The notes below the pieces were generated by a model. That model did no database searches. It saw nothing but the letters and a program-made list of their open reading frames with translations, and had not been told where the DNA came from. Shown one piece after another: positions 142-56,290 of a stretch of 64,000 nt of DNA. Position 1 is the first letter of the stretch. Each line of letters begins with the position of its first letter. A program made the translations under genes and the position numbers. Source of the DNA: Bradymonadales bacterium (GTDB lineage Bacteria > Myxococcota_A > Bradymonadia > JAFGEP01); assembly GCA_016931535.1 (NCBI GenBank), contig JAFGEP010000096.1:104091-168090 (forward strand). Reading direction: 5' to 3'.

Positions 142-1524
142 GTGAGAGTAGGGAAGCGCCTCACCTGCACATTGACCTGCGGTCTCTGGTTCTGGATGGC
201 ATGGATGGGGTGGCCCGGGGTGGGCCAGGCCTCTCGCTTTTTTGTCTCCATGGAGAGCGCTGGCGACGCCGACGAGCTGACGCGAAGCGACCTGGACGGC
301 CTGGTACGGCGCCGTTTCTCTCAGAGCCTTTTCTTCTCCGGTACCCACCTGCTCACCGAGGAGAGCAACTCCCTGGAGATCCTGTTTCGAGGTCGAGCCG
401 ACACCGACTTCGCTCGGCTGGTGGACGAGCGTTCCCGTGATCCGAGGGAACGGGAGGCGATCGGCTTCGAGCTGCAGATGGCCTATCTCCGTTATGCGCC
501 CACCGACTCGATCTCCTTGCGGGCCGGACGGTTGTTTGTCTTGGGGCCGCTGCCTGCCGTCGACCTGGACGGGCTCGCCCTGCAGATCAACGGGTTTCAC
601 GGGTGGAGCGGCCAGGTGGGGTTGGGACGGGAGGTCCGCTATGGGCAATCCCGGGTAGACGGTGGAGCCTTCGACGCCCTGGGGCCGCGTTGGTCCTACT
701 TTGACGACCCGAGGGAGGAGACGACCTGGTTGACCCAGGCCGACCTGGGTTGGTCGGGCGGCCCGGTGACCGCCCGGGGAGGGCACCGGGTGGGCTGGCG
801 TCACGGGGACCGGGTCAGTCAGCTGACCTCGCTGGTCGGGCGTCTGGTCTTGGGAGGTTGGGACGGGACCTTGCGGGGCACCTTCAATCACCTGATGGAA
901 AGGCCGGATCGGCTCGAGGCTCGGGTGACGATCCCGCTGGATGTGCTTTCGACCCGTCTACGCCTGGGATATAGCTACCTGCGTCCCTGGTTTGACGGCG
1001 ACAGCATCTTCAACGTCTTTCCCATGTCGCCCCACGTGTGCTGGCAAGCAGGGGCGGAGACTCGGCTCTCCCAGCGAACCGAGCTGTGGGTGGGCGGGCA
1101 CCAGCGGGTCTATGCTCTCCAAGAGGAGATCCCCTGGCTGGGAGGCCTCGATCCCGCTGCCGACACCTACTCGTCGGGCGGTGAGTTCAACCTGTATGCC
1201 CAGCTCCTGCCGGTCCTGCATGTTCGCGGGACCTTCAGTGGAGAGACCGGGTACGGCGGTACATTGCTCAGCACCGAGGCGGCTGCTTCCTGGCAGGTCG
1301 TGCCTCAGCGGCTCGAGCTGGGCGCGAGGTTACGTCACTTCTACCTGTCGGATCCGGATTTCAGCGGAACGAGGGAGCACCAGGGGGCGGCCAGGTTACG
1401 GGGGGCTTTTCGATTGAGTAGCTTTGGCGATCTGGCGGTCACCCTGGAAGGGGTAAGCAACTTTCGGACCACCGTGGCGTTCAGAGCGATGGCACTGGCC
1501 ACCTTCGACCTGGGGCCGTTTTGA
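142..1524 (+). CDS. Putative outer-membrane beta-barrel protein; the start codon is uncertain
   Basis: 460-aa ORF with alternating hydrophobic/polar beta-strand-like pattern, Gly/Tyr/Arg-rich, and a C-terminal ...FDLGPF ending in Phe, typical of OMP barrels. Its stop is 2 nt before the next ORF. No recognisable catalytic motif. Confidence 0.4.
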   Translation: MRVGKRLTCTLTCGLWFWMAWMGWPGVGQASRFFVSMESAGDADELTRSDLDGLVRRRFSQSLFFSGTHLLTEESNSLEILFRGRADTDFARLVDERSRDPREREAIGFELQMAYLRYAPTDSISLRAGRLFVLGPLPAVDLDGLALQINGFHGWSGQVGLGREVRYGQSRVDGGAFDALGPRWSYFDDPREETTWLTQADLGWSGGPVTARGGHRVGWRHGDRVSQLTSLVGRLVLGGWDGTLRGTFNHLMERPDRLEARVTIPLDVLSTRLRLGYSYLRPWFDGDSIFNVFPMSPHVCWQAGAETRLSQRTELWVGGHQRVYALQEEIPWLGGLDPAADTYSSGGEFNLYAQLLPVLHVRGTFSGETGYGGTLLSTEAAASWQVVPQRLELGARLRHFYLSDPDFSGTREHQGAARLRGAFRLSSFGDLAVTLEGVSNFRTTVAFRAMALATFDLGPF

Positions 1525-1741
1525 CGTGGCGAGTGGGACTGGTGCATGGGGAACGGGTCCTCCCGATCAGGGGGAATCAGCCGAATCGGGGCGCAAAACG
1601 ACAGAAGTCCGACCTGCCGAACGGCAGACCGATCCGAGGGTGGTGAGAAGACTCGTCGGATCGATGCGTCACGCCGAAGGGGCCGGCACTGCCGGTCATC
1701 AGATCGGCTCGGGTGTCCTTTGGACCTTCCATCGCTGGTCG

Positions 1742-2983
1742 ATGTGGTTCCCAGCAGTCTTGCGGTTCGGGTTTTCGTCCAGCTGGAGTGCTGGCAGGTC
1801 GTCCGATCGAACTGGTCGGGGGGTGCGGCTATGGATTGGCCTGGGGGCAGTGCTGGCGTTGGCCTGGGGGGCCTATGCCTGGGGTGAATCGGGGGATCTG
1901 ATCGGGACGCGGCTGCCCTCTAGGGCGGTATATCCTCCCCATGACTACCAGGTGATCTTCGACCACGCCTTTCACAGCCAGCAGTCGCCATGCCCCCTTT
2001 GCCACCGCATGGTGGCGATGGATGAGGGGGTCCCGGCCGAACCGATGCCCTCCATGGAGACCTGTGGAAGCTGTCACGACCAGGCAGCCGACACCGAGGA
2101 TCCGCTGGCGTGTTCCCATTGCCATCGCGACTACCGGCCGATGTGGCCGGATGATCGCGGGATGACCGGCGTTCGCGATCCGCGCTTTCCCCTGGTGAGG
2201 CCCAGGCCCCCCGTGAGGCTGGCGGCCAATCTCCACTTCGAGCATGGCACGCATGGGCGGATCCCCTGCGTCACCTGCCACCCGATGGAGGTGGAAGGTG
2301 GCGCTTCTCTGCCGCTGGAAGAGCTGTGCCTGGATTGCCACCGGAGCTCGGCGGTTTCGGACGACTGTGGGACCTGTCATCCTTCCGGCGATGACGGGCG
2401 GCTGGTCACCCGTTTTTCGGGCAGCCGCACAGCGAGCCCGCAGCTCCTCCGTCCCGCCGACCACGGCCTCTCGTTCCGACAGGACCATGGGGGAGCGGTA
2501 CAGGCGGAGCCGACCGCCTGTTTCCGGTGCCACTCGGAGCAGAGCTGTCTGAACTGCCACGTGCCCTCCCTGGGGATCAGGACCATCCACCCCCCGGGTT
2601 TCATCGAGGATCACGGTCTGGATGGGCGGCGAGCGGGGAGAAACTGTGCTTCTTGCCACCAGGTCACCGCCTTCTGCGTCGACTGCCACGTCGATGCGGG
2701 ATATGGAGACGACACGGTTCACGGACCCGTCTCGGGGTACCCCTACCACCCGGCCGGCTGGCAGGATCTGGATGGGCGGCATGGCCGAGCGGCCCAGCGA
2801 AACCTGGCCGAGTGCGCATCCTGCCATCAGGAGAGCCACTGTGCGGGATGCCACCAGGCGGTGTCTCCCCACGGTCCCGCCTTTGGCGCGCGGTGTGGGA
2901 CGTTGCGATCGGCCAATCCCTCCGTATGCACACGCTGTCACGCCGACGAGTACATGGCGTCCCTTCTGGACCGATGCCGATGA
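1742..2983 (+). CDS. Multi-haem c-type cytochrome, ~13 CXXCH motifs, with an N-terminal transmembrane/signal anchor
   Basis: CXXCH motifs read directly: CPLCH, CGSCH, CSHCH, CVTCH, CLDCH, CGTCH, CFRCH, CLNCH, CASCH, CVDCH, CASCH, CAGCH, CTRCH. The hydrophobic segment WIGLGAVLALAWGAYAWG precedes the first haem site. Start chosen at ATG 1742 (MWFPAV...). The ORF is open from 1526, so the true start could be upstream. Confidence 0.75.
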   Translation: MWFPAVLRFGFSSSWSAGRSSDRTGRGVRLWIGLGAVLALAWGAYAWGESGDLIGTRLPSRAVYPPHDYQVIFDHAFHSQQSPCPLCHRMVAMDEGVPAEPMPSMETCGSCHDQAADTEDPLACSHCHRDYRPMWPDDRGMTGVRDPRFPLVRPRPPVRLAANLHFEHGTHGRIPCVTCHPMEVEGGASLPLEELCLDCHRSSAVSDDCGTCHPSGDDGRLVTRFSGSRTASPQLLRPADHGLSFRQDHGGAVQAEPTACFRCHSEQSCLNCHVPSLGIRTIHPPGFIEDHGLDGRRAGRNCASCHQVTAFCVDCHVDAGYGDDTVHGPVSGYPYHPAGWQDLDGRHGRAAQRNLAECASCHQESHCAGCHQAVSPHGPAFGARCGTLRSANPSVCTRCHADEYMASLLDRCR

Positions 2984-3202: not shown

Positions 3203-3757
3203 ATGGGCATGCAAGTGACCAAGGAGATGTTGGACGCCAGGCAGCAGAAGCTGATGGACACGGCCAACCAGATACTGAAGCTGGCCAACACGAAGGGCGA
3301 GCACGGGGACGAGATCGTGAAGCTGGCGAACCAGGCCCAGAAGGAGGCTCAGGAGCTGGAGGCGATGGCCAAGGTGTACGAGGCCCAGTCGCTGGAGGGC
3401 CGCAAGCCGGCAAAGGCGGTGCCAACAACCATCTACGTGGAGCTGACCGACGAGCAGCGCAAGCGCATCCTGGATGAGACCGGGGTGCGCATGGAGAGGG
3501 TGGAGATTCCGGACGATACCGGGATCATGGAGCGGACCATGCCCGTCAACCAACCTCCGGACATCTACCCCCTGGCTTTGCAGCAGGCCCGTTCGAGAAA
3601 AGCACTGGAAGAGGCCGAGCAGGCGGCAATGGCCGATGCGGCCAAGGGGCTGGCTGCCCTGAAGGCGCAGCGCAACCCGGACATGGACAAGCTGGTGGAG
3701 AAGGCCAAGGCGGATCCCAACTTCCTGTGCGGTCTGTTACAGAAACAGAAAAAGTAG
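3203..3757 (+). CDS. Hypothetical Lys/Glu/Ala-rich, coiled-coil-like protein
   Basis: 184-aa ORF with a GGGAGG-like RBS just upstream of the ATG. Coding-like codon usage, no signal peptide, no recognisable domain. Confidence 0.5.
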   Translation: MGMQVTKEMLDARQQKLMDTANQILKLANTKGEHGDEIVKLANQAQKEAQELEAMAKVYEAQSLEGRKPAKAVPTTIYVELTDEQRKRILDETGVRMERVEIPDDTGIMERTMPVNQPPDIYPLALQQARSRKALEEAEQAAMADAAKGLAALKAQRNPDMDKLVEKAKADPNFLCGLLQKQKK

Positions 3758-3998
3758 GAAGGGGCGAGGTTCGGATCCTGGCGAGTCCCAGTTCGGTTCA
3801 TCACCCATGTGGACCGGTCTGGGAAAGGGGAGGCCTTGTCGAATGGAGGTCAGGGACGACCGTCGGGCTGCCGAGAGGTTCTGGCGTGTACAGTTGGCAC
3901 CGAGGGAAGGGGTTGGCCACGGTGCTCGGGTCGATGGTCCCCCGAGGGCCATGTTACCCTGATTCCAGAAGGGCAATCACCAGAGTCGATCCGGGGGG

Positions 3999-4904
3999 CT
4001 AGGCGATGGTGTGGCCGGGAGCGCCGATGTTGTCGCCGCTGACCACCGGTCCCACCGGGACATAGGGTGGGGAGAAGGTGGGGATGGGCCCCTTGCCCAT
4101 GACCAGCATGACCTGCTGCTGGGGCAACCACATCAGGAAAGCCAGGGACAAGGTGGTGGCCACGGCCTCGAACAGGGTCTCGTGGAACTTGTCCGGGTCG
4201 TCGTCCTTGATCTTTTGGTCCAGGGCGTCCACGCACGCTTTTTTCATGTCGCTGGGGGCGACGATCTTGGACATCATGGCGGAGGGACAGGCGATAAAAG
4301 GGACCGGTACGTTGGGCATGGGGGGTGCCATGGGGCCCGGGAAGGCGGCGAAGGCGGGGTACCAGGGCAATCCGGGCACCATGACCTTGGCCGCCCAGGC
4401 GTCGAAGCACTCCCCAACCCCTTTGGCGCAGGCCTCCAGGAACTTTTTCTTGTTGTCCTTCCAGGCGGCGCCGCCGGGGAACATCTTGATCTTGTCCTCC
4501 ATCTTGGGGCCGTCGAGGCAGCCGGGGGTCCCGATGGCCGACACCGCCATGACCTTGAGGTCTTTTAACTTGGCTTCCAGCCGCCACATGTCCACGCCGA
4601 ACTTGACGGCGTCGATCAGGCCATCGTAGAGCTCCTTGTAGGCCTTGCCGATCTCGTCGCAGCTATCCTGGTGGTACTTGTTGGCGTTTTGTGGGTTGAG
4701 CCAAGGGAATGGCGTCTGTCCCGGGGTGGCGACCTTTTCCTCGGGTTTGAGGGAATCATCGTAGTGTTTGGCGGCGGGATCGCCCTGGGGCTGCTTCCAT
4801 TCCGTGGGCAGCTTGTGCATCTTCCCGACAAAGACCAGCTCACCTAGGATGTTGATGGGGCTCAGAGGGGGCATCTTTTCTCTCCGCTTCGCGCTTCTCC
4901 TCAA
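3999..4904 (-). CDS. Hypothetical Cys-containing protein with no recognisable domain
   Basis: 301-aa ORF, divergent from the PAAR gene and convergent with the 3203 ORF. Local GC is slightly lower than the surroundings. No signal peptide. Confidence 0.5.
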   Translation of the reverse strand: MRRSAKRREKMPPLSPINILGELVFVGKMHKLPTEWKQPQGDPAAKHYDDSLKPEEKVATPGQTPFPWLNPQNANKYHQDSCDEIGKAYKELYDGLIDAVKFGVDMWRLEAKLKDLKVMAVSAIGTPGCLDGPKMEDKIKMFPGGAAWKDNKKKFLEACAKGVGECFDAWAAKVMVPGLPWYPAFAAFPGPMAPPMPNVPVPFIACPSAMMSKIVAPSDMKKACVDALDQKIKDDDPDKFHETLFEAVATTLSLAFLMWLPQQQVMLVMGKGPIPTFSPPYVPVGPVVSGDNIGAPGHTIA

Positions 4905-5149
4905 AAGCTAGTCATTGGTGTCGAACTGTTCAAGTGCCGCGATGCTGGGTCCCTGCCAGTTGAGTGCGGGAACTTTGTTCCGCCACTTGCACAACGGCAG
5001 AATACACCATACCTTTGTGATTGGGCCAGGGTGATTTGGGCCCGGCGATGCGGTCGCTCGTTTCGCCTCTCCATGGGGTAGGGCGAAGGGCCCCTTCGCG
5101 CGATAACCAGTACGTTTTGTCGAGTGCGAACAAATAGTAGGAGTATCCG

Positions 5150-5473
5150 ATGCCTGCAGCAGGTCGTCTCGCAGATCTAGCCAAAGCGGATCCTCATGCC
5201 CATTGCTGTCCCGCCTGCCCTCATCCCACAGTGGGTCCCTTGATCCTTGGCTCGCCCGATGTGTTCATCAATAACATGCCAGCGGGGCGAAAGACGGATA
5301 TGGGCATCCATGCCGCCTGCTGTGGACCCAACATCTGGATGGCGGACGCCGGAAGCGGCACCGTGTTCATCAACGGGAAGGCCGCCTTCCGCAAGGACGA
5401 TGCCACCAAGCATTGTGGAAGCTTCGCTGGCAAGCTGATCCAGGGCAGCCCCGACGTGATCGTCGGCGATTGA
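5150..5473 (+). CDS. PAAR-domain protein (PAAR_motif/DUF4150-like spike-tip protein)
   Basis: 107 aa with repeated PAAR-type segments: MPAAGR...GSPDVFINNMPAGR...DMGIHAACCGPN...GSGTVFINGKAAFR...HCGSFAGKLIQGSPDVIVG. The paired CC/C metal-site residues are present. Confidence 0.8.
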   Translation: MPAAGRLADLAKADPHAHCCPACPHPTVGPLILGSPDVFINNMPAGRKTDMGIHAACCGPNIWMADAGSGTVFINGKAAFRKDDATKHCGSFAGKLIQGSPDVIVGD

Positions 5474-5720: not shown

Positions 5721-6677
5721 TCACCCCTCCTTGACCGCCAGCCTTCCGTGGAGTCGATAGCGATATCGCACCCGGTGGGTGCGGGCCATCTCCCAGGGGA
5801 TCGAATCGACCCGTTCCAGAGTGCGCAGGCCAAGGCGGTGCAGCAGCGCATCCCACTGGCCGTCCTCGGTGGCCAGCCAATGTTCCGGCTCGACCAGCGA
5901 GCGGCTCCAGCTATCCGGCTGTGCCAGGATCAGGTAGCCGCCCGGTCGGATGAGCGCCACGGCCTGCCCGAGAACCACCCAGGGATCGCGGACGCTGTCC
6001 AGCAGGTTGACGGCCAGCACCAGGTCGAAGGCGGAAGCGGCCAGGGGCGGATGGAGGACATCGGCACAGATCCAGCGCACCCGTCCGGGGGTGGGGCTTA
6101 CCGGGACATCGGCCTGGGTGAGCTCGAACAGCCCTTCCGACCGGAGGCGAGGCCAGACGAGCTGTTGGCTCCGTTGGGCCAGGTTGGCCCAGTAGAGGTT
6201 GGTCGGTTCGTGGTCGAGACCCGTGACGGCGCAGCCGGTCCGGTGGGCGATCTCCAGGGTGAGGCGACCGGGACCGCAACCGAGGTCCACCGCCGTCTGG
6301 GTCGGCTCCGGGATGCGGGGCAGCAACAGGTCGCACAATGCGGTAAACGGCTCGGCTTCTCCTCCGTAGTGGGCGGACAGGTACATGGCGGCGAAGACCG
6401 CACTATCCCAGGTCGGCTCGCCGGGTGTCAGGCTGTTCAGCTCCACCAACCAACGCGCCATGGAAGGGAGATCACGGTTCACGTCGACCTGCAGAATCGA
6501 GTCGACAGACCCCGGCACGATCACCGGAACGCCGTTGGAGAGACGGGGAAACACTCGGCGGCAATCCGGGTTGGAGCAGGTCAGGCTATCCGGGTCGACC
6601 GGCCAGGCCTGGGGTGGCTGGCGGCACAGGGGGCAGATGAGAAGCTCGGAGGGATGAACAGCCATGCACCCTGTCAT
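5721..6677 (-). CDS. Class I SAM-dependent methyltransferase with an N-terminal Trm112-like zinc ribbon
   Basis: CxxC...CxxC ribbon (LICPLCRQ...LTCSNPDCRR) followed by the SAM motif I VDLGCGPGRLT. The start (ATG 6677 or 6665) is uncertain. Confidence 0.7.
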   Translation of the reverse strand: MTGCMAVHPSELLICPLCRQPPQAWPVDPDSLTCSNPDCRRVFPRLSNGVPVIVPGSVDSILQVDVNRDLPSMARWLVELNSLTPGEPTWDSAVFAAMYLSAHYGGEAEPFTALCDLLLPRIPEPTQTAVDLGCGPGRLTLEIAHRTGCAVTGLDHEPTNLYWANLAQRSQQLVWPRLRSEGLFELTQADVPVSPTPGRVRWICADVLHPPLAASAFDLVLAVNLLDSVRDPWVVLGQAVALIRPGGYLILAQPDSWSRSLVEPEHWLATEDGQWDALLHRLGLRTLERVDSIPWEMARTHRVRYRYRLHGRLAVKEG

Positions 6678-6731
6678 GCAAGAGGGGAAGAATGCTGCCG
6701 ACAACGAAACGGCCCGCAAGGGAGCGCATTC

Positions 6732-7493
6732 ATGGTCCGATGGTATATCACGCTCTTGTGGACGGCACTACTGGGGATGACATCCGGCTGCGAGGAGCAG
6801 CTGCTGTTCGAGCCCGATCCATTTCAGCGGGAGCTGGTGCGCACCTATGCCCGTGAGACCGGCTGGGCGGATCGGGCTTTCGGAGCCGACCTGGTATGCA
6901 TCACAACCACCAGACCCCTGTGTCTGTGCGACCCCGAGCGGCTGGACCAGATCGTCAACGGGCTCCCCAACCACCTGAGACTGGACCTCAACAGCGCCTC
7001 GCGGGAGGAGCTGATCCGACTTCCCGGGATCGGACCTCGCCTCGCCGAGCGGATTCTCGCCTCCCGTCGGGATCGCCCCTTTGCCTGTGTGGAGGACCTG
7101 ACCCGGGTAGAGGGTATCGGCCCTGGCCGTCTGGCCAAGCTAGCCCACCTGGTGCGGGTGGGGGCCCATGAGCCGGATCGTTCTGAGACTCGAGAGGAGC
7201 CCGAGGTAGCGGAGGAAGCTGGGGGAGGCGAGCGTGGGGTGGCGCCAGGCACGGGAGCGGCGCCGGACAGGGCGGAGAGGGCAGACAGGAGGGAAAGGGC
7301 GAGCAGAGGGGAGAGAGCCCAGAGGATTTCCTCTTCGAGGGGAAGGCATAGCCGGGGGAGAAGGGGGCCAAGGGAGCCGTCTGATGATCCGGGGATGGCT
7401 GCCAGCGGTGAGGCGAACCGGTTTTTCCAGCGGATCCGGGACCTGGTGGTCGCGGTGGTGGCGAGCAGCAAAATAGCTGTGCACGACCGGTGA
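6732..7493 (+). CDS. ComEA-family helix-hairpin-helix DNA-binding lipoprotein
   Basis: Lipobox LLGMTSGC, then the ComEA signature DLNSASREELIRLPGIGPRLAERILASRRDRPFACVEDLTRVEGIGPGRLAKL. Acidic/basic low-complexity C-terminus. The upstream part of the long 5748..7493 ORF is antisense to the methyltransferase and was rejected. Confidence 0.75.
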   Translation: MVRWYITLLWTALLGMTSGCEEQLLFEPDPFQRELVRTYARETGWADRAFGADLVCITTTRPLCLCDPERLDQIVNGLPNHLRLDLNSASREELIRLPGIGPRLAERILASRRDRPFACVEDLTRVEGIGPGRLAKLAHLVRVGAHEPDRSETREEPEVAEEAGGGERGVAPGTGAAPDRAERADRRERASRGERAQRISSSRGRHSRGRRGPREPSDDPGMAASGEANRFFQRIRDLVVAVVASSKIAVHDR

Positions 7494-9222: not shown

Positions 9223-12162
9223 GTGAAATCGTTGCGAATCGAGGCGACCATGCCGGTGTCAGACCCTCTTTCTGCAACATCGATAGAAGCCTCGCGTTCT
9301 CCACGCGGTACCAGGCACGTCTGTGTGTGGTGGGTATGCGGCTCCTCTGGCCAGCAGACGGGAAACCCCGGCAGTCGCCAGGCGAGGGGCGGTATCCCGT
9401 CGATCTGTCTTGCGCTGCTGGCCCTCTCGTTGGGGTGGGCGACCTGGGGATGCAAGGTGGAAGTGGCCGAGGTCCATTGCCTTGCCAGCACCGACTGCCC
9501 CGACCCGGGACAGCAATGTGTGGGGGGCCGGTGTGTACAGACCGATGACGGGGTGGATACCGGAAAGGACACCGAAGAGGATGCCCAACTGGATATCGAC
9601 CTCCCCGATTCGCAAGTGGATGGGGAGGACCAGGAGGACCAGGTAGAGCTGTGTGACTTTCAGCCCTACTGCTCGAATGACGAGAAAACGCTGATCACCT
9701 GTGTATCCGGCATGGTGGTCAGCCAGGATTGTGGCTCCCTGCGCTGTTGTGATGACGCCTGCGTGGATGTGAACAGCTCCGTGGCGCACTGTGGGGGGTG
9801 CGGCGACCGTTGCCCCGGCGCCGAAGAGGGGGTGAGCTCCACCTGTGTCAATGGCAATTGCCAGTCCTCCTGTCTGCTGGGTCGCATGGACATGAACGGA
9901 GATCTGGCGGAGGACAACAGCGACGGTTGTGAATGCTCCCTGGTTGATCCGGTGGGCGACTGCCCTCACCATGACTGCGGCTCGGGCACCACGGAGGAGG
10001 ATCGCTGCGACCTGAGCTCGCGATACCTGTATGTGGCCCCTGCACCCCTGGGCAGCTCCAGTGGAGATGGGAGCGCCGCTCAACCGTTCAAGACTCTCGA
10101 TGCGGCTCTCTTGGCCGTGACGGAGGACCACAACGTCATCCTGGTGGCGTCGGGCATCTACAACCTGAACCAGAAGCCGATCCAGTATGACGGGGAGGTG
10201 GAGATCTGGATCGCCGGAGGTTTCGATCCCTCGACAGACTGGCAGCGGTCGGAGGAACACCCCAGCACGCTAGCGGGGGCCAACCCGGTTGTCGAGATCG
10301 CGGGGAGCGCTCCAAGTCACTGGGTCCACCTGGTTCTCCTGGCGGAGGATGGAAGGGACGGGGGCCAGGCGGGAGAATCGGGAGAGACCAGCATCGGGAT
10401 GGTGGCGGTCAACACCGACCTCTCTCTGCACGAAGTGGAAGTGATAGCGGGTGATGGCGGCCTGGGCCAGCACGGGGCCGCGGGTTCTTCCGGGGTCGAG
10501 GTGAGCGTGCGAGGTCAAGCCGCTCAACCGGGTCTCGACGAGTGTATCTGCAATACGAGCGACCGGTGCACCACGGGTACGGGGAACAATATCTGTCCGC
10601 GGGCCGGGGGTTTAGGAGGAGGGAGCAATACCTGTCGCGAGGTGCCACGCTCCCACACGCGGGGAGGAGCAGGGGGGAGAGGGAAATACGGCGCATTGGA
10701 TGCGATGCCGGGTACGGATGGCGGTCATCCGTATGGAGGACTGGGAGGTACAGTAGGTTCGGGGGTCTTTCAGAACGGAGGGGTGGGAGCTGACGGATCG
10801 GCGGGAGCGCCAGGCATTGGTGGTGGGCCGTTTGGATATGTCCGCGGCAATCGCTGGCATTCTTTGCCAGGTGGTACCGGTGGAGAGGGACAGCCGGGTT
10901 TCGGAGGTGGGGGAGGTGCCGGGAAGGACCATGCACAAGATGACCAGGTGGCTGGCGCCTCCGGCGGTGGGGGTGGATCGGGAGGTTGTGGCGGTGTCGG
11001 AGGCCAGGGGGGGGGCGGTGGCGGAGGGAGCATCGCACTGTTGCTGATCGATACGCGAGCCCTCCTGGATGGCGGCCGGTTGGAGTCGGGAGAAGGCGGC
11101 GATGGCAGCCACGGCGCACAGGGGGGGGTGAGTCAGCCGGGTGAGTCGGGTCAACTGGGGGGCGCATTTGTCAACGGCTTGGGGGAGACCGAGAGGGCCG
11201 GCTCTGGTGGCGACGGTGGTGACGGTGGCGATGGCGGCCACGGTGGAGGGGGGGCGGCCGGTCTGTCGGTCAGCCTGATGGCGGTCGGATACCAGGAGGC
11301 CATTCGCTGGCTGGAGTTGCCTGATCTGGTCCACGGAGCAGCGGGAGTGGGCGGTGATGGGGCGCCGGACTATCGACTGGATCTGGATGGGGATGGCCTG
11401 CCCGACACCGAGGTCCTCTCCTCGGGGTACATCGGATATGCCGGCTATTTCCTGCGGTACGGCGAGGCCAAGACGGAAAGCGAGGAATCTGGCCAGTGCC
11501 CGCGAGGGATGGTCGAGGACTCGTCGGGGGTGAGCATCGGAGGTTTGCAGAGCCAGGTGACCTACTGCATCGACATGGTCGAGGCCACACGGCCGATGGC
11601 GACCAGCACGCAGGCCGAGGATTCCGACTGGAGCTTTTCTGGAGCTCAGGCCATGGCAGGTTACCAGGTGCTGCCCTGGAACCAGGTCAACCTGGTCGAG
11701 TCGATCATCGCCTGCAGCCGGGCGGGGAAAACCCTGTGTCCCATCGGGTTCCAACAAAATACCTGCCGGGGCGGAGAGGCGAATCATCCCTATCCCTATG
11801 GAAGCCCTCATCAGCCTGGGTTATGCAATGACGCCAGCGGAGGCCAGGGGAGCGTGGCCGTCACCGGAGGATATCCGTTGTGCGTTTCCTCCACAGGACC
11901 GGTCTTCGACCTGACCGGCAACCTGGCCGAGTGGGCCATCTCCATCCTTCCGCTGATGGGCGTCGATACCACCGAAACCGCTTATGGCGCGGTGGGCGGC
12001 AGCTACCTGGACGACAAGAACGACTCGTGCTGCAGCGCCCTGGAGTGGCTTTCAGGGATGAACATGTACGTCCGCCGGGAGGACCTGGGATTTCGCTGCT
12101 GTATGATCGCGGGCCATCTGCTCGATCAGGAGTACGGGGCGGTCATCATTCACGACCAGTGA
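9223..12162 (+). CDS. Large secreted Cys-rich-repeat / Gly-rich protein with a C-terminal FGE-sulfatase (SUMF1-like) domain
   Basis: Lipobox-like LALLALSLGWATWGC. Myxococcales-type Cys-rich repeats (C..DC...C..G.C, e.g. CGGCGDRCPGAEEGVSSTCVNGNCQSSC). Long GGxGG glycine-rich stretches. C-terminal motifs GNLAEWA...VGGSY...RREDLGFRCC match the FGE/SUMF1 fold. The start is uncertain. Confidence 0.65.
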   Translation: MKSLRIEATMPVSDPLSATSIEASRSPRGTRHVCVWWVCGSSGQQTGNPGSRQARGGIPSICLALLALSLGWATWGCKVEVAEVHCLASTDCPDPGQQCVGGRCVQTDDGVDTGKDTEEDAQLDIDLPDSQVDGEDQEDQVELCDFQPYCSNDEKTLITCVSGMVVSQDCGSLRCCDDACVDVNSSVAHCGGCGDRCPGAEEGVSSTCVNGNCQSSCLLGRMDMNGDLAEDNSDGCECSLVDPVGDCPHHDCGSGTTEEDRCDLSSRYLYVAPAPLGSSSGDGSAAQPFKTLDAALLAVTEDHNVILVASGIYNLNQKPIQYDGEVEIWIAGGFDPSTDWQRSEEHPSTLAGANPVVEIAGSAPSHWVHLVLLAEDGRDGGQAGESGETSIGMVAVNTDLSLHEVEVIAGDGGLGQHGAAGSSGVEVSVRGQAAQPGLDECICNTSDRCTTGTGNNICPRAGGLGGGSNTCREVPRSHTRGGAGGRGKYGALDAMPGTDGGHPYGGLGGTVGSGVFQNGGVGADGSAGAPGIGGGPFGYVRGNRWHSLPGGTGGEGQPGFGGGGGAGKDHAQDDQVAGASGGGGGSGGCGGVGGQGGGGGGGSIALLLIDTRALLDGGRLESGEGGDGSHGAQGGVSQPGESGQLGGAFVNGLGETERAGSGGDGGDGGDGGHGGGGAAGLSVSLMAVGYQEAIRWLELPDLVHGAAGVGGDGAPDYRLDLDGDGLPDTEVLSSGYIGYAGYFLRYGEAKTESEESGQCPRGMVEDSSGVSIGGLQSQVTYCIDMVEATRPMATSTQAEDSDWSFSGAQAMAGYQVLPWNQVNLVESIIACSRAGKTLCPIGFQQNTCRGGEANHPYPYGSPHQPGLCNDASGGQGSVAVTGGYPLCVSSTGPVFDLTGNLAEWAISILPLMGVDTTETAYGAVGGSYLDDKNDSCCSALEWLSGMNMYVRREDLGFRCCMIAGHLLDQEYGAVIIHDQ

Positions 12163-31163: not shown

Positions 31164-34100
31164 TTGAATGGAATTATGACTTTACTACCCACTACCAGCA
31201 ATGGCCCCCTCCGAGCAGTACCCCCATCGGTTCAGCAAACGACCTTGGGTTTGAAAGCACCACCGCACCAGCAGGAGCTGGAGAGCCTGAGACAGCTCCG
31301 GGCGGAGGTGACAGAAGGCAAGACAGGCCGGGCAGCCATCCTGATCGGCCCCGGCGGCACAGCTGGGGCGGAGTTGCTGACCCAATGGAGGCAAGAGCTG
31401 CACCGCCAGCGGGAGCCGGTGTTCGAGGCGGACTGTTACCCTGGCGGGAGTGCCTACGCCCCTCTGGTCGAGGTGATGGCGCGTTACGTGCGGGTGGTCG
31501 AGAACCTGGGGTTGATGGACGCTGCGTTGGGTCAGCTTTACAGCCAGGTGGGCAAAGATCTGGGTGTTGTGCGGCTGGTGTCGGCCGAGCGGGGCCCTGC
31601 GGGCCCCCGGCGGGAAGGGGACGAGCTGCGGTTTTACGAGAGGCTGGGAGAGCTGTTCTCGCGATTGAGCGAGAAGGTCTCCGGCGTGATCCTGATCCGG
31701 GATCTTCACCTGGCGGATGCTGCGACGCGAGCGGCGGTCCAGTACTTGCTGCGCTTCGTGGTGACCGACCCCTTTTCCGGGGTCTCCCAAGCCCCATCGG
31801 GGTCGGTCTCTTTCGTGGGGCTATTTGCGGTATCGCTGGCGGAAGGGGAACCGTTGCTGGCCAACCTGCGAGAGCACCTCGATGGGCGACAGGGGGTTCG
31901 GTTCATCGACCTGACCGATGCCACCGAGGAGTCGGTGCGGCGGTTTTTGAGCAGTCCGGAGGTGATCCAGCGGTTTCTGGATTCGACGGGTGGAGATGCG
32001 ATCCACTTGGAGTCGCTGGTAGAGTCGCTTCCCCACAACGTCGAGGATCTGTACCTGCGGCGCTGCGAGCAGCTTTCCTCGCAGGAGAGGGAGGTGCTGG
32101 AGGGTCTTGCGGTCTGTGGCAAGCCCATTGCGCCCGACCTGTTGCTGCTGCTTTTGGGGCTGGAGTCCTGTGCGGTCATCCTGAACGACCTCATCCAGAA
32201 GCGGGTGATCGTGCGCCGGGTGCAACGGGGGCAGCTATTGATCGATCTGCCCTCGCAGGGGAATCGGCAGGTGATCTACCACCGGCTCGATCCAGCCAGG
32301 CGTGCTCGGCTGCACGGTCGGTACGCCGGGATACTCAGGCAGAGGGCCCGATTTGGTGATTCGCCGGATGTGGCGGAGCTGGCTCGTCACTACCTGAGGG
32401 GCGAGCATCCCCAGGAGGCGATCGAGACCTCTCTGCTGGCGGCTGAGCGGCTTCACATGACCTTTGCTTACGAGCAGGCGATCGAACTGCTGGAGGCCGC
32501 CTTGCCGTTGACGGCTGGGGGGAAGGACCGCCAGGCGGTGCTGGAACGGCTGGTCGACCTGTACGGCTGCCGGCACGAGCATCGACGGGCGTTGTACTAC
32601 TGCGGACTGCTGAAGAAAGAGGTGAGGCCCACCGACCGGGGGGTGCTTTTTCGGCGGACGGCCGAGTTCTTGCTCCAACTGGGCAGCTACCGGAGCGCCC
32701 TGCGCTTGTTGGAAAAGGCGGAGCAGGCGTTCGAATCGACAGGGGATGCGGCCGATCGTCAAGAGGAGCGCATCCGGATCGCTGCCATCGCTGCCGAGGC
32801 CCTCTATGGGCTGGGGCAGCACGACCGGGTGGTCCGGGAGTGCCAGGCGGGTTTGGGCCGGGTCCTCGGTTCGACTCAGGCCGAGGTGTTGCGCCAGGCG
32901 ATCCGGCTGAACAACACACTGGGCAAGGTGTACCTCCAGCAGGAAGAGTATGACAGGGCCATCGCGGTCTTTCGCCAGAATCTGGAGCAAGCCCAGGAGC
33001 AGGGGTGGTCGGAGGAGGCGGTCCGGGCCCGCTTCAACCTGGGTACCGTGGCGCTTTCCCAGCGGGACTATGAACGGGCGGAGGAGCTCCTGTCGTCCTG
33101 CCTGGTTTCCGACGAGGGCGAGGTCAGCCCGGTTATCCGTGCCTTCATCCAGATGAACCTGGCGGTGGCTTATCACAAGACCAACCGTTACGCCCGGGCC
33201 CTTGATTCCTACCTGCTCAGCCTGTCCACCTTCTCCCGGTCGGGCAACGAGCTGCAGTACGCGGTGGCGGCCATGAACCTGGGGGCGCTGTACGAGCTTC
33301 TAGGAGATCTGGGACGGGCGCGCGAGCTGGTAGGGCACAGCTTGAAGATCATGCAAGCACGGGGCATGCGCTACTACGAAGGCTGGGCCAGCTACGTGCT
33401 GGGAAGCATCGCGCTGGAGGAGGGACAGCTCGGGGAGGCCCGGGCATGTCTGGCGCATGCTCTACAGGTCATGTCCCAACAGGGTTCGGAGACCTGGGTG
33501 CAGCGCATCCAGGTGCGCCTATGTCGGCTGGATCTCCAGGCCGGCGAGGTCGCCGGTTGCCGGGCTCGGCTATCGGCTCTGGTACAGGCCGGTACGACCC
33601 GGGAAGAGCGCGAGATCGAGGCGGAGGCCCATCAAAGTCTGGGACAGGCCCTGATCGCTTCCGGCCAGACCGAAGCCGGGCTTTCGGAGCTGATGAGGGC
33701 CCGCAATCTGGCCGAAGAGGTCGAGGCCCAGGACCGGCTATGGCGGATCGATCTCCGTCTGGCGGAGCAGTACCAGCGCGACGGCCGGTCCGGTGAGGCG
33801 ATCGCCAGGCTGCAGGCTGCCGCCTCCCTGATCCACAAGGTGGCGGAGCAGCTGCCGCCCGGCGTCGAGTCGGTGTTTCTGGGTACCCCAGAGCGACAGC
33901 GGGTGTTTCAGCTATTGGAGGAGATCCGATCCAGCCGGCATCGGCCGGCGCCGATCACCAAGCAGATGGCGCTGCCGCAGGGTCGTGACTTTGCGGTCTG
34001 GCGTAAGCGTTATGGCCGGATGGTCGGGGACGACCGCAAGCTGCTGCAGATTTTCCGGATGATCGACCGGATCGCCGATAGCGGCTCCACGGTCTTGATC

Positions 34101-35165
34101 CAGGGGGAGAGCGGCACCGGTAAGGAGCTGATCGCAGAGGCGATCCACAACAACAGCTCCCGACGGGACCAGCCGTTCGTGAAGGTCAACTGCGCAGCCT
34201 TCGTGGAGACGTTGCTGCTCTCCGAGCTGTTCGGCCATGAAAAGGGCGCCTTCACCGGTGCCCTGAGCCGCAAGAAGGGCCGATTCGAGCTGGCCGATGG
34301 CGGCACCCTGTTTCTGGACGAGATCGGGGATATCTCGCAAAACACCCAGATCGCCCTGCTGCGCGTCCTGCAAGAGCGGACCTTCGAGCGGGTAGGAGGG
34401 GGCGAGCCGATCGCGGTGAATGTCCGGGTCATCGTGGCTACCAATCAGGCGATCGAGGAGATGGTCAAGCGGGGGGAGTTCCGGCTGGATCTGTACTACC
34501 GGCTCAAAGGTGTGATCGTCGAGCTCCCCCCCTTGCGATCCCGGCGCGGAGATATCGCGCCGTTGCTGAACCATTTCACCGCGCTTTGCCAGCCGGCGGG
34601 CCAGGGCAAGCGTTTTTCCTTCGAGGCCTTGGAGTACCTGACCCGCTACAGCTGGCCGGGCAACGTTCGCGAGCTGGAGAACTTTGCCCGAAGCATCTCG
34701 CTGTTTGTGGATGAGCCGGTCATCGACCTGCATCACATCCTGCAGTTCGAGGAGTTCTTCGATGACGGGGAGAGGATCGAGGAGCTGCCCGAGGATCTCC
34801 TGGCGGGGCTGCGGGAAGCGAGCCGATCACCAGAGGGATGCCGGATGGAGCAGGTCTGGTCCGCACAGCCATCGGAGCCGCCCCACCCCGACGAACCGGT
34901 GCCGATCGGAGCACAGGACGGCGGTTCGGTGGGCAGCGCGATGATGGTCTGGGCCAGAAACGAGGGGTTGGGCCTGCCCGAGCTGCGGCGGTGGATCGAG
35001 CTGGAGTACATCAAGCGGGCTCTGGCGGAGACGGGAGGGAATGTCACCCAGGCGGCGAAGCTTCTGGATATGAAGCGACCGCGGTTGAGTCAGATCATCA
35101 ACGGGACAGCCGAGCTGTCCGAGCTCAGGGACAAGCTGACCTCAACCGGGGAGGAAGGCACATGA
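31164..35165 (+). CDS. Giant sigma-54-dependent transcriptional activator with a degenerate NTPase-like/TPR N-terminal region and a Fis-type HTH
   Basis: Sigma-54 AAA+ core [15 protein letters not shown]...[13 protein letters not shown]...[10 protein letters not shown]...GNVRELEN. C-terminal [22 protein letters not shown]. The N-terminal 900 aa has a P-loop-like [15 protein letters not shown] that lacks the Walker Lys, plus many TPR-like repeats. Confidence 0.8.

Positions 35166-54931: not shown

Positions 54932-54935
<4 letters not shown>
54195..54935 (-). CDS. Rhomboid-family intramembrane serine protease
   Basis: Six TM helices, catalytic GASGAIAG motif and a downstream His in a TM segment. 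Start overlaps the upstream regulator stop (ATGA). Confidence 0.75.

Positions 54936-56290
<1,355 letters not shown>

What the first reader, a model, noticed from the sequence alone, without database searches (positions are those of the whole stretch)
3203..5473. Orphan PAAR-domain gene with two unknown neighbours in a slightly lower-GC patch
A 107-aa PAAR protein (5150..5473) is divergently arranged with a 301-aa Cys-containing unknown (3999..4904, minus). It is next to a 184-aa Lys/Glu-rich coiled-coil unknown (3203..3757). The 245-nt divergent intergenic region (4905-5149) is noticeably AT-richer. Established knowledge: PAAR proteins cap VgrG spikes of T6SS and related contractile injection systems, and usually neighbour effector, immunity or adaptor genes. 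No VgrG, Hcp or Tss genes are in the window, so the neighbours are candidate cargo/immunity or adaptor proteins. The status of the PAAR-associated module is unknown.
Basis: partly seen in the sequence, partly recalled or inferred. Interest (0 to 1): 0.55.

Follow-up and report, generated by a model that had tools for sequence, protein, structure and literature searches.

The report
PAAR tip gene with novel partner family
A small spike-tip (PAAR) gene in a predatory Bradymonadales genome sits in a conserved four-gene module whose central 291-aa protein founds a large uncharacterised family, linked in Myxococcota to injection-system spikes and across phyla to a dedicated set of protein-modifying enzymes.

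Summary
All three ORFs, the divergent arrangement, the AT-richer spacer and the absence of T6SS/CIS genes in the 64 kb are real.

The 107-aa protein is an intact PAAR. Its closest solved relative is the eCIS tip protein SalCis10. It is 64% identical to the PAAR domain encoded inside an Afp/Pvc-class injection-system locus of Polyangia.

The 291-aa neighbour ("X291") is the notable part. It has no Pfam family and no match to a known fold. It occurs in at least 287 species genomes, mostly Myxococcota. In 26 of 82 loci it lies within 6 kb of this PAAR subfamily or a gpV-like spike, often 7–10 nt away.

Its ~210-aa proline-rich core defines a superfamily of 696 clusters. There the core is fused behind DUF4150/PAAR-like domains, Tat/Sec signals or disordered N-termini. 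In 5 of 6 distant loci it sits directly beside an orthologous B12/radical-SAM enzyme, usually with a methyltransferase and a 2OG oxygenase.

The methyltransferase at 5721–6719 belongs to the module. X184 is a fast-evolving partner of X291.

Best reading: X291 is an enzymatically matured passenger carried on a PAAR-capped spike. Its function is not shown.

This is a new variant of a known kind of system.

The parts
3203..3757 (+). X184: a 184-aa Lys/Glu-rich helical protein with no signal peptide. It is a fast-evolving, Myxococcota-specific partner of X291, candidate chaperone or antidote.
3999..4874 (-). X291: a 291-aa proline-rich protein (the ORF extends to TTG 4904; the likely start is ATG 4874). 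It has an N-terminal ~77-aa region specific to signal-less members and a ~210-aa conserved core (residues ~78-290) that defines a new superfamily. Candidate matured passenger of the PAAR-capped spike.
   Evidence: Searches cover the ORF, start and family. The AF2 model has pLDDT 83.7 and pTM 0.81. No fold or sequence match in PDB or BFVD. 287 species genomes. 696 clusters at 50% identity. Fusions and signal peptides. Neighbourhood statistics.
4875..5149 (.). Divergent, AT-richer intergenic region between X291 and PAAR, presumably holding both promoters. It contains a sigma-54-like -24/-12 element on the minus strand at 4959-4942, about 70 nt upstream of the X291 start.
   Evidence: GC 56%. Sigma-54-like match CTGGCAGGGACCCAGCAT, 10 of 13 consensus positions. 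This is a consensus match only. No sigma-70 site, Rfam family or flanking repeat.
5150..5473 (+). PAAR: a 107-aa Cis10-type spike-tip protein. It is inverted relative to the MT->PAAR->X291 operon seen in relatives.
   Evidence: PF05488 at 44.1 bits against 27. Best solved relative is SalCis10 (9rce), E 2e-7, full length. 64% identical to the N-terminal PAAR domain of the 984-aa protein in the L001 CIS locus. The subfamily has 537 hits, about 106 aa, at 60-79% identity. Three R..D repeats and nine His/Cys are invariant.
5721..6719 (-). Class I SAM-dependent methyltransferase with an N-terminal Trm112-like zinc ribbon. The start is probably ATG 6665.
   Evidence: Pfam Methyltransf_11/23/25. Its best NCBIfam match is only partial: the OvoA C-terminal methyltransferase, 60.9 bits against a cutoff of 170. 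The orthologous family lies within 6 kb of X291 in 23 of 82 loci, 11 of them directly adjacent, typically MT->PAAR->X291. It is present in the L001 CIS locus.

Best explanation
The 107-aa gene is an intact PAAR spike-tip protein of the eCIS Cis10 type. Together with X291, X184 and the adjacent methyltransferase it forms a detached piece of a module conserved across Myxococcota. In Polyangia this module lies between the spike (Cis8) genes and the PAAR/baseplate genes of an Afp/Pvc-class contractile injection system.

X291 is the constant element. Its ~210-aa proline-rich core is a modular exported domain. In other phyla it leaves the cytoplasm through Tat or Sec signals, or is fused behind a DUF4150/PAAR-like domain. 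It is almost always encoded beside an orthologous B12-dependent radical-SAM enzyme, usually with a methyltransferase and a 2OG-Fe(II) oxygenase.

Most likely mechanism (inferred): X291 is matured in the cytoplasm by these enzymes. It is then carried out of the cell as a passenger on the PAAR-capped spike of a contractile machine encoded elsewhere. X184 acts as its private chaperone or antidote.

Shown: the families, the gene linkages, the domain fusions and the conservation.
Inferred: modification of X291, its physical attachment to PAAR, its export, and its effect on a target.
For: 1. PAAR identity. Pfam above cutoff. Best solved match is the eCIS tip SalCis10. Invariant PAAR repeats and Cys/His.

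2. Orthology to a CIS-encoded PAAR, 64% identity. That locus has Cis7- and Cis8-like proteins matching solved Pvc/Afp/AlgoCIS/SalCIS parts, plus gp25, Baseplate_J and Tail_P2_I. The MT-X291-X184-rSAM block lies between Cis8 and PAAR.

3. Linkage. In 82 non-redundant loci, PAAR or a gpV-like spike lies within 6 kb of X291 in 26. This holds in at least six different gene orders, often with 7-10 nt gaps. All 22 PAAR hits lie within 5.3 kb although up to 10 kb was searched on each side.

4. An independent T6SS-style island reads VgrG-DUF4123-...-PAAR-X291like-DUF2169.

5. Rosetta-stone fusions. DUF4150/Tox-PAAR-like + X291 core occurs in P0259 (58.2 bits against a cutoff of 31) and P0373. PxPYPN remnants occur in three more.

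6. Export logic. Tat and Sec signals, CARDB domains or disordered basic N-termini replace the N-terminal 77 aa in other members.

7. Enzyme cassette. The core sits beside an orthologous B12-rSAM in 5 of 6 distant loci: L089 (Armatimonadota), L090, L092, L093 and L094. HMM scores reach 531-543 bits, and one pair overlaps by 4 nt. Orthologous MT and PhyH are present in four of these loci. In Myxococcota, rSAM occurs in 24 loci, MT in 23 and a PF13640 oxygenase in 11 of the 82.

8. X291 has conserved but low-confidence proline-rich segments and no conserved catalytic-type residues. That fits a substrate or docking role better than an enzyme.
Against: - No contractile-machine gene is in the window. 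The rest of the genome could not be searched.
- Cultured Bradymonabacteria are reported to lack a T6SS (PMC11509652). Their eCIS status is unknown.
- 29 of 82 X291 loci show none of the partners within the available flanks.
- The loci are related genomes, so the counts are not fully independent.
- No B12-rSAM lies in the window's 64 kb.
- The Myxococcota methyltransferase is not orthologous to the methyltransferase of the distant cassettes.
- The oxygenase is a different 2OG family in Myxococcota (PF13640 rather than PhyH).
- Very high conservation of X291 is unusual for delivered effectors.
- No modification, interaction or secretion has been observed.
- A complex prediction could not be run.
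Confidence: 0.5

Rival explanations
1. X291 is a conventional toxic effector and X184 is its immunity protein. Together they form a kin-discrimination or predation toxin-antidote pair loaded on PAAR.
For: The core sits C-terminal to DUF4150/PAAR-like domains and to varied trafficking N-termini, as toxin domains do in polymorphic toxin systems. A small, fast-evolving, signal-less gene abuts X291 in 23 loci. Bradymonabacteria show kin discrimination without a T6SS.
Against: X291 is not polymorphic: 55-70% identity across orders and uniform length. Across the superfamily only G, W, P, F, N and V are invariant, with no catalytic signature. X184 is absent near X291 in about 70% of loci, and its orientation varies between upstream on the same strand and convergent. 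Tat/Sec-exported homologs have no X184. No toxin or immunity profile matches.
Confidence: 0.22
2. X291 is not cargo. It is a cytoplasmic assembly factor or structural accessory of the spike tip, functionally like the DUF2169/TvpA, Eag or DUF4123 adaptors. It stabilises PAAR on the gpV/Cis8 spike.
For: It is tightly adjacent to PAAR or the spike and very highly conserved, like structural parts. It lies between the spike and baseplate genes in L001. Accessory proteins that chaperone PAAR are a known concept (PMC13373197).
Against: Many homologs carry Tat or Sec signals and occur with no PAAR or spike nearby. In the fusion proteins the core sits in the position of the delivered domain. An adaptor role does not explain a dedicated rSAM/MT/oxygenase cassette. 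No similarity to DUF2169, DUF4123 or DUF1795.
Confidence: 0.15
3. The linkage to PAAR is historical synteny. X291 and its enzymes form a cell-envelope or housekeeping system unrelated to injection. The window's PAAR is a stranded relic, or it acts independently, possibly without any contractile machine.
For: X291 is widespread and often alone: 29 of 82 loci have no partner. The window is ordinary chromosome. The closest relative L086 keeps PAAR+rSAM but has no X291 within 10 kb. Bradymonabacteria reportedly lack a T6SS.
Against: Proximity survives many rearrangements, including at least six gene orders and the window's local PAAR inversion. The PAAR is under strong purifying selection, with all motifs intact. 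DUF4150-core fusions exist, and a second, T6SS-type island has the same PAAR->X291 order.
Confidence: 0.13

Closest known systems
Afp10/Pvc10/Cis10 PAAR-like tip proteins of extracellular contractile injection systems (e.g. SalCis10, PDB 9rce)
   Same: Same size, with a full-length alignment to SalCis10 (E 2e-7). PAAR repeats and Cys/His ligands are conserved. An ortholog domain is encoded in an Afp/Pvc-class locus next to Cis8/Cis9/Cis11-like genes. SalCis10 caps the Cis8 trimer (PMC13266070).
   Different: In the window it is detached from any CIS gene and inverted relative to its partners. The subfamily has an extra invariant HxCxxCxH N-terminal motif. It also appears in a VgrG/DUF4123/DUF2169 island.
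Auxiliary (orphan) vgrG/PAAR-effector islands of T6SS, and specialised PAAR- or DUF4150-fused effectors (Tde2, Tse6, Rhs types)
   Same: A tip or spike gene travels with a specific partner gene away from the main machine. The partner's core also exists as a C-terminal fusion to a PAAR-like domain.
   Different: The partner is highly conserved rather than polymorphic, has no recognisable toxin fold or catalytic residues, and comes with modifying enzymes. No Hcp or Tss genes were seen in any locus examined.
PAAR/VgrG accessory proteins: DUF2169 (TvpA), DUF4123 (Tap/TEC), DUF1795 (Eag), TvpC/DUF6484
   Same: They are encoded next to PAAR or VgrG and needed for loading. L087 carries DUF4123 and DUF2169 alongside PAAR-X291. 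A 136-aa neighbour family weakly resembles the spike's terminal beta-prism, like the TvpC mimics (PMC13373197).
   Different: X291 and X184 match none of these families. X291 homologs are exported by Tat or Sec in other phyla.
Tailoring enzyme sets of proteusin RiPPs (polytheonamide: B12-rSAM C-methyltransferases + N-methyltransferase + Fe/2OG hydroxylase) and protein-modifying B12-rSAMs (methyl-coenzyme M reductase methylases). This comparison is from my own knowledge.
   Same: The same trio of enzyme classes is encoded directly beside the presumed substrate gene. The rSAM's best partial NCBIfam matches include the RiPP rSAM ApyD and the MCR glutamine C-methyltransferase.
   Different: The presumed substrate is a confidently folded ~210-aa domain, not a short leader-core peptide. 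All enzyme scores are far below family cutoffs. No modification has been demonstrated.

Membership tests
PAAR domain (Pfam PF05488) | Profile match above the curated gathering score | tested here: met
   44.1 bits against a cutoff of 27, E 2.4e-11.
PAAR domain (Pfam PF05488) | Three PAAR-type repeats and conserved metal-binding His/Cys | tested here: met
   R6/D9, A45/R47/D50 and R81/D84 are invariant in 23 subfamily members, as are H18, C20, C23, H25, H54, C57, C58, H88 and C89. This is sequence level only.
PAAR domain (Pfam PF05488) | Binds the blunt tip of a VgrG/gp5/Cis8 beta-helical spike | not testable with these tools
   No complex prediction or experiment was possible. gpV-like spike genes are adjacent to subfamily members in L025, L028, L001 and L087.
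T6SS PAAR protein (NCBIfam NF033420 equivalog) | Score above the equivalog cutoff | tested here: not met
   34.5 bits against a cutoff of 124. T6SS PAAR structures 4jiw and 4jiv score below SalCis10.
eCIS Cis10/Afp10-type tip protein | Closest similarity to a solved eCIS tip protein, and orthologs encoded within an Afp/Pvc-class locus | tested here: met
   SalCis10 is the best PDB match over the full length. 64% identical to the PAAR domain in L001, whose Cis7- and Cis8-like proteins match solved eCIS parts.
eCIS Cis10/Afp10-type tip protein | A cognate contractile machine (sheath, tube, baseplate) in the same genome | not testable with these tools
   None in the 64-kb window.
Known T6SS adaptors/chaperones (DUF4123, DUF1795, DUF2169), considered for X291 and X184 | Profile match to the family | tested here: not met
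   No Pfam, NCBIfam or PADLOC match for either protein at E up to 0.1 or 0.01.
Polymorphic toxin / immunity pair (X291 / X184) | C-terminal domain combined with varied N-terminal trafficking modules | tested here: met
   DUF4150, Tat, Sec, CARDB and disordered N-termini all precede the same core.
Polymorphic toxin / immunity pair (X291 / X184) | Sequence polymorphism of the toxin, and a recognisable catalytic or pore-forming signature | tested here: not met
   Mean column identity is 65-70% across orders. The only invariant residues in the superfamily are G, W, P, F, N and V. No match to a known fold.
Polymorphic toxin / immunity pair (X291 / X184) | Cognate immunity gene consistently adjacent | tested here: inconclusive
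   X184 lies within 6 kb in 25 of 82 loci with mixed orientation, and is absent from the distant cassettes.
RiPP-like / enzymatically matured protein (X291 core + B12-rSAM + MT + 2OG oxygenase) | Substrate gene encoded directly beside its tailoring enzymes in independent lineages | tested here: met
   5 of 6 distant loci have the orthologous rSAM adjacent, and 4 of 6 also have MT and PhyH. In Myxococcota, rSAM is present in 24 of 82 loci.
RiPP-like / enzymatically matured protein (X291 core + B12-rSAM + MT + 2OG oxygenase) | Demonstrated covalent modification of the substrate | not testable with these tools
   This needs mass spectrometry after co-expression.
RiPP-like / enzymatically matured protein (X291 core + B12-rSAM + MT + 2OG oxygenase) | Short precursor with a leader and a cleaved core peptide | tested here: not met
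   The core is a ~210-aa domain modelled with pLDDT 84 and pTM 0.81. Some members continue for about 350 aa beyond it.

The most novel reading that the evidence does not exclude
The X291 core may be a protein-sized, RiPP-like product. It would have to be C-methylated and/or hydroxylated by its own B12-radical-SAM, methyltransferase and 2OG-oxygenase set before export. Its export route would have been swapped during evolution between Tat/Sec and the tip of a contractile injection system. In T6SS-less Bradymonadia, the PAAR-X291-X184 module would then be part of the 'undiscovered' contact-dependent system behind kin discrimination or predation.
Probability: 0.2. Interest if true: 0.85.

Novelty: new variant of a known kind. 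Interest (0 to 1): 0.62.

Why it matters
PAAR-tipped spikes are the loading dock of T6SS and eCIS, and new cargo classes and loading rules are actively sought, in part for engineered protein delivery.

This work gives an unannotated family of about 700 clusters a concrete, testable context. It has a defined partner (a Cis10-type PAAR or gpV-like spike), natural PAAR-like fusions, and a dedicated B12-rSAM/methyltransferase/oxygenase cassette conserved from Myxococcota to Armatimonadota.

If the maturation idea holds, it would be the first injection-system passenger known to me that needs radical-SAM tailoring. No paper in the searched library links the two.

It would also offer a candidate for the kin-discrimination or predation machinery of Bradymonadia, which are reported to lack a T6SS.

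If the idea fails, the result is still a clean new domain family plus a corrected gene model for the PAAR.

Tried and rejected
- Defence-system profiles (PADLOC): no match for X291, X184 or PAAR. The only match was the methyltransferase, which hit a generic mad2 methyltransferase region.
- Phage origin: X291 is absent from 2.9 million IMG/VR contigs.
- Mobile-element signs: no inverted or direct repeats flank the PAAR, despite its inversion.
- Riboswitch or ncRNA in the long spacers: no Rfam match at E up to 1.
- Sigma-70 promoters and terminators: nothing above the shuffled expectation.
- X184 fold search: only coiled-coil noise.
- The first single-linkage ORF clustering chained X291 with the methyltransferase and was replaced by per-family iterated HMMs.
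- Tvp accessory proteins (TvpA-D) were considered as identities for X291 and X184. They are DUF2169, pentapeptide, DUF3540/DUF6484 and PRK06147 proteins, so they were rejected.
- Orthology of the window methyltransferase with the distant-cassette methyltransferases: not detectable.
- Literature searches for radical SAM with PAAR, T6SS or CIS cargo: none found.
Full report
**1. Observation**

The 107-aa protein is a PAAR by Pfam: PF05488, 44.1 bits against a gathering score of 27. It has a TAGGAG ribosome-binding site. Homologs of 106-108 aa align over its whole length. The public annotation of the same MAG, a Bradymonadales bacterium with locus tags JW797_*, calls only a 77-aa fragment (P0132).

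The 301-aa ORF most likely starts at ATG 4874, which has a GGAGAG upstream. That gives 291 aa, matching about 290-aa homologs that all begin with MP.

The divergent spacer is 56% GC against 64% for the window. The 400-nt minimum is in the lowest 0.5% of windows and the whole finding is in the lowest 2%. The dip is real but modest.

Pfam scans of about 38 further ORFs show ordinary chromosomal genes. These include glycolysis enzymes, seryl-tRNA synthetase, RtcB, sigma-54 activators and kinases. There is no T6SS or CIS component. My module HMMs hit only four genes in the 64 kb: X184, X291, PAAR and the methyltransferase at 5721-6719.

**2. The PAAR**

Its subfamily has 537 detectable members, nearly all about 106 aa and 60-79% identical. 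Three R..D PAAR repeats and nine His/Cys are invariant.

It fails the NCBIfam T6SS-PAAR equivalog, with 34.5 bits against 124. Its best solved relative is SalCis10 (E 2e-7, full length). SalCis10 is the single PAAR-like cap on the Cis8 spike of the Salmonella eCIS (PMC13266070). It scores ahead of the T6SS PAARs 4jiw and 4jiv.

The window PAAR is 64% identical (E 2e-45) to the N-terminal domain of a 984-aa protein in locus L001, from an 8-Mb Polyangia-type genome.

L001 is an Afp/Pvc-class machine. Its 187-aa 'tube' protein matches the Pvc7/Afp7/Cis7 tube initiators. Its 354-aa hub matches Cis8 of several solved eCIS. It also has Phage_base_V, gp25, Baseplate_J and Tail_P2_I.

**3. X291 and its neighbourhood**

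More than 1,300 proteins match it. The best 120 are 56-67% identical and 283-317 aa long. Relatives occur in at least 287 GTDB species genomes, nearly all Myxococcota MAGs.

I fetched 80 of these loci with up to 10 kb of flank on each side, and five more through exact look-ups. I built iterated HMMs for each candidate neighbour family. In 82 non-redundant loci (window included), the following lie within 6 kb of X291:

| Neighbour | Loci |
|---|---|
| This PAAR subfamily | 22 |
| gpV-like Phage_base_V spike | 10 |
| PAAR or spike | 26 |
| X184 | 25 (23 with a gap of 300 nt or less) |
| Methyltransferase | 23 |
| B12-binding radical-SAM enzyme | 24 |
| PF13640 2OG oxygenase | 11 (all directly adjacent) |
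| 647-aa unknown | 9 |

All 22 PAAR hits fall within 5.3 kb of X291 although up to 10 kb was searched on each side.

The partners occur in at least six different gene orders:
- MT->PAAR->X291 with 7-10 nt gaps (L014, L016, L018, L020, L030).
- Spike->X291 with a 9-nt gap (L010-L012).
- X291, X184, spike, PAAR (L025, L028).
- X291 ... rSAM, PAAR, MT (L035, L045, L058, L068).
- Further arrangements.

Proximity has therefore been kept through repeated rearrangement.

In L001, L008 and L009 the block hydrolase-647-MT-X291-X184-rSAM lies between Cis8 and the PAAR/gp25/Baseplate_J genes.

Starting from PAAR instead, a MAG labelled Nitrospirae shows VgrG(678 aa)-DUF4123-...-PAAR-X291like-DUF2169. This is a T6SS-style island with the same PAAR->X291 order.

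The window has the order MT, PAAR, X291, X184, but the PAAR gene alone is inverted. It is flanked by unusually long spacers of 247 and 275 nt and has no flanking repeats.

29 of the 82 loci show none of these partners in the available flanks. The closest PAAR relative (L086, which is syntenic with the window) has PAAR-rSAM but no X291 within 10 kb.

**4. The superfamily**

An exhaustive profile search found 696 clusters at 50% identity with E up to 1e-3, and 517 with E up to 1e-10.

The conserved core corresponds to X291 residues about 78-290. The first ~77 residues are specific to signal-less members.

Other members put different modules in front of the core:
- A DUF4150/Tox-PAAR-like domain: P0259 at 58.2 bits against a cutoff of 31, and P0373 at 31.2 bits. 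Three more have PxPYPN remnants.
- Tat-type or Sec-type signals, sometimes with CARDB domains.
- Most often, low-complexity basic N-terminal extensions without a signal.

A few members add about 350 aa after the core.

Across 26 diverse members only G122, W160, P173, F175, P185, N188, G260, G262, V277 and G280 are invariant. The signature is VPGLPWYPAFAAFPGPxAPPxPNxPxP ... GxGPxPxFxPPxVPxGPV. These segments are among the least confident parts of the model. Nothing resembles a catalytic site.

**5. The enzyme cassette**

Six distant members could be placed on contigs. Five have an orthologous B12-binding radical-SAM gene immediately adjacent:
- L089, a Fimbriimonas-like Armatimonadota MAG. Its rSAM scores 531 bits against my Myxococcota rSAM HMM and is 41% identical over 453 aa.
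- L090.
- L092.
- L094, where the rSAM and core genes overlap by 4 nt.
- L093, a 1.26-kb contig showing only the rSAM tail followed by the core gene.

Four of these also have mutually orthologous methyltransferases (35-55% identity) and PhyH-type 2OG oxygenases (29-50% identity).

The rSAM belongs to no curated family. Its best partial matches are the RiPP rSAM ApyD, HpnJ, BchE and the MCR glutamine C-methyltransferase, all far below their cutoffs.

The Myxococcota methyltransferase (window, L001) is a different class I subfamily from the distant-cassette methyltransferase. The Myxococcota oxygenase is PF13640 rather than PhyH. Only the rSAM link is strictly orthologous across phyla.

**6. X184**

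X184 evolves fast, at 26-40% identity where X291 keeps 55-70%. It has no signal peptide or family. It is predicted to be a helical hairpin plus a small beta-alpha-beta unit (pTM only 0.40), and it gives only coiled-coil matches.

It accompanies X291 even where no PAAR is near, and it is absent from the distant cassettes. It is therefore a partner of X291 rather than of PAAR.

**7. Interpretation**

Shown:
- A genuine Cis10-type PAAR.
- A conserved PAAR/spike-X291 linkage, including one inside a CIS locus.
- PAAR-like-core fusions.
- Alternative export signals.
- A cross-phylum X291-core/B12-rSAM cassette.

Inferred:
- X291 is modified by these enzymes in the cytoplasm. This is compatible with Tat export of folded proteins and with spike loading.
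- X291 then rides on the PAAR-capped spike.
- X184 assists or neutralises it.

I put this at about 0.5.

Rivals are a classical toxin/immunity pair, a non-exported spike-assembly accessory, and mere historical synteny with a relic or machine-independent PAAR. Each is weighed in its own section of this report.

A key gap is that I could not search the rest of this genome for a contractile machine. Cultured Bradymonabacteria are reported to lack a T6SS yet show kin discrimination (PMC11509652). This makes the question more interesting.

No paper in the searched library connects radical-SAM enzymes with PAAR, T6SS or CIS cargo.

**8. Verdict**

The finding is real, and more interesting than a routine orphan PAAR. 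The PAAR itself is a known kind. Its constant partner is a new, large family with an unusual enzyme cassette.

Novelty: new variant of a known kind. Interest: 0.62.

Noticed in passing
window 5150-5473: The public annotation of this MAG calls only a 77-aa PAAR fragment (P0132). The full 107-aa ORF with a TAGGAG Shine-Dalgarno is supported by 106-108-aa homologs. The N-terminal 30 aa that were dropped include invariant residues: R6 and D9 of the first PAAR repeat, and H18, C20, C23 and H25 of the HxCxxCxH motif.
   Followed up: yes
window 4942-4959 (minus strand): A sigma-54-like -24/-12 element (CTGGCAGGGACCCAGCAT, 10 of 13 consensus positions) lies about 70 nt upstream of the X291 start. The window also encodes two sigma-54 activators (31164-35165 and 54932-56290). 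This is a consensus match only.
   Followed up: partly
L053:9485-9895 (-) and 10 other loci (L013, L023, L024, L035, L042, L044, L045, L049, L055, L058): A 136-aa family lies next to X291 on the opposite strand and ends in ...VRVVGKMIYLN. It aligns weakly (hhalign E 2e-4, probability 46%) with the last ~60 residues of the gpV-like spike. It may be a mini beta-prism or spike-tip mimic. In 10 of these 11 loci a PF13640 2OG oxygenase also lies directly downstream of X291.
   Followed up: partly
L087:5016-12261 (GCA_016214845.1, labelled Nitrospirae): A T6SS-style island: VgrG-DUF4123-117aa-346aa-277aa-PAAR-X291like-DUF2169. The flanking PEGA, Ser/Thr-kinase and FHA genes look Myxococcota-like, so the bin label may be wrong.
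   Followed up: partly
L086:9108-9938 and window 5721-6719: The gene upstream of PAAR in the closest relative is weakly EgtC-like (ergothioneine amidohydrolase, 43.8 bits against 218). The window methyltransferase's best partial NCBIfam match is the OvoA C-terminal thiohistidine methyltransferase (60.9 bits against 170). Both enzyme types act on histidine-thiol chemistry, next to a PAAR rich in invariant His/Cys. This is unexplained.
   Followed up: no
L001:13058-16012: The CIS-locus PAAR carries an ~870-aa C-terminal extension with an MgtE_N-like helical repeat (49.5 bits). It is not a recognisable toxin domain.
   Followed up: no
L010, L011, L015 (upstream of the spike gene); L001:6056-6871: An alpha/beta-hydrolase gene recurs next to the gpV-like spike and X291. 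It could be a lipase-type effector of the same module.
   Followed up: no
window 5748-7493 (+): This long ORF overlaps the methyltransferase on the opposite strand and is mostly spurious. Its last ~240 codons look like a real lipoprotein with helix-hairpin-helix (ComEA-like) motifs. A ComEA-like (HHH-domain) gene lies next to the ortholog of the window's 421-aa gene in the syntenic locus L086.
   Followed up: no
window 9223-12162 (+): A 979-aa Cys- and Gly-rich secreted-looking protein with a weak C-terminal FGE-sulfatase-like match (E 0.059). It has no relative in any X291 locus, so it is not part of the module.
   Followed up: partly
window 142-2983 (+): A 460-aa unknown is followed directly by a 485-aa multihaem cytochrome (Cytochrome_C7/nanowire triheme domain) just upstream of X184. 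Neither is found in other X291 loci, so they are not part of the module.
   Followed up: partly
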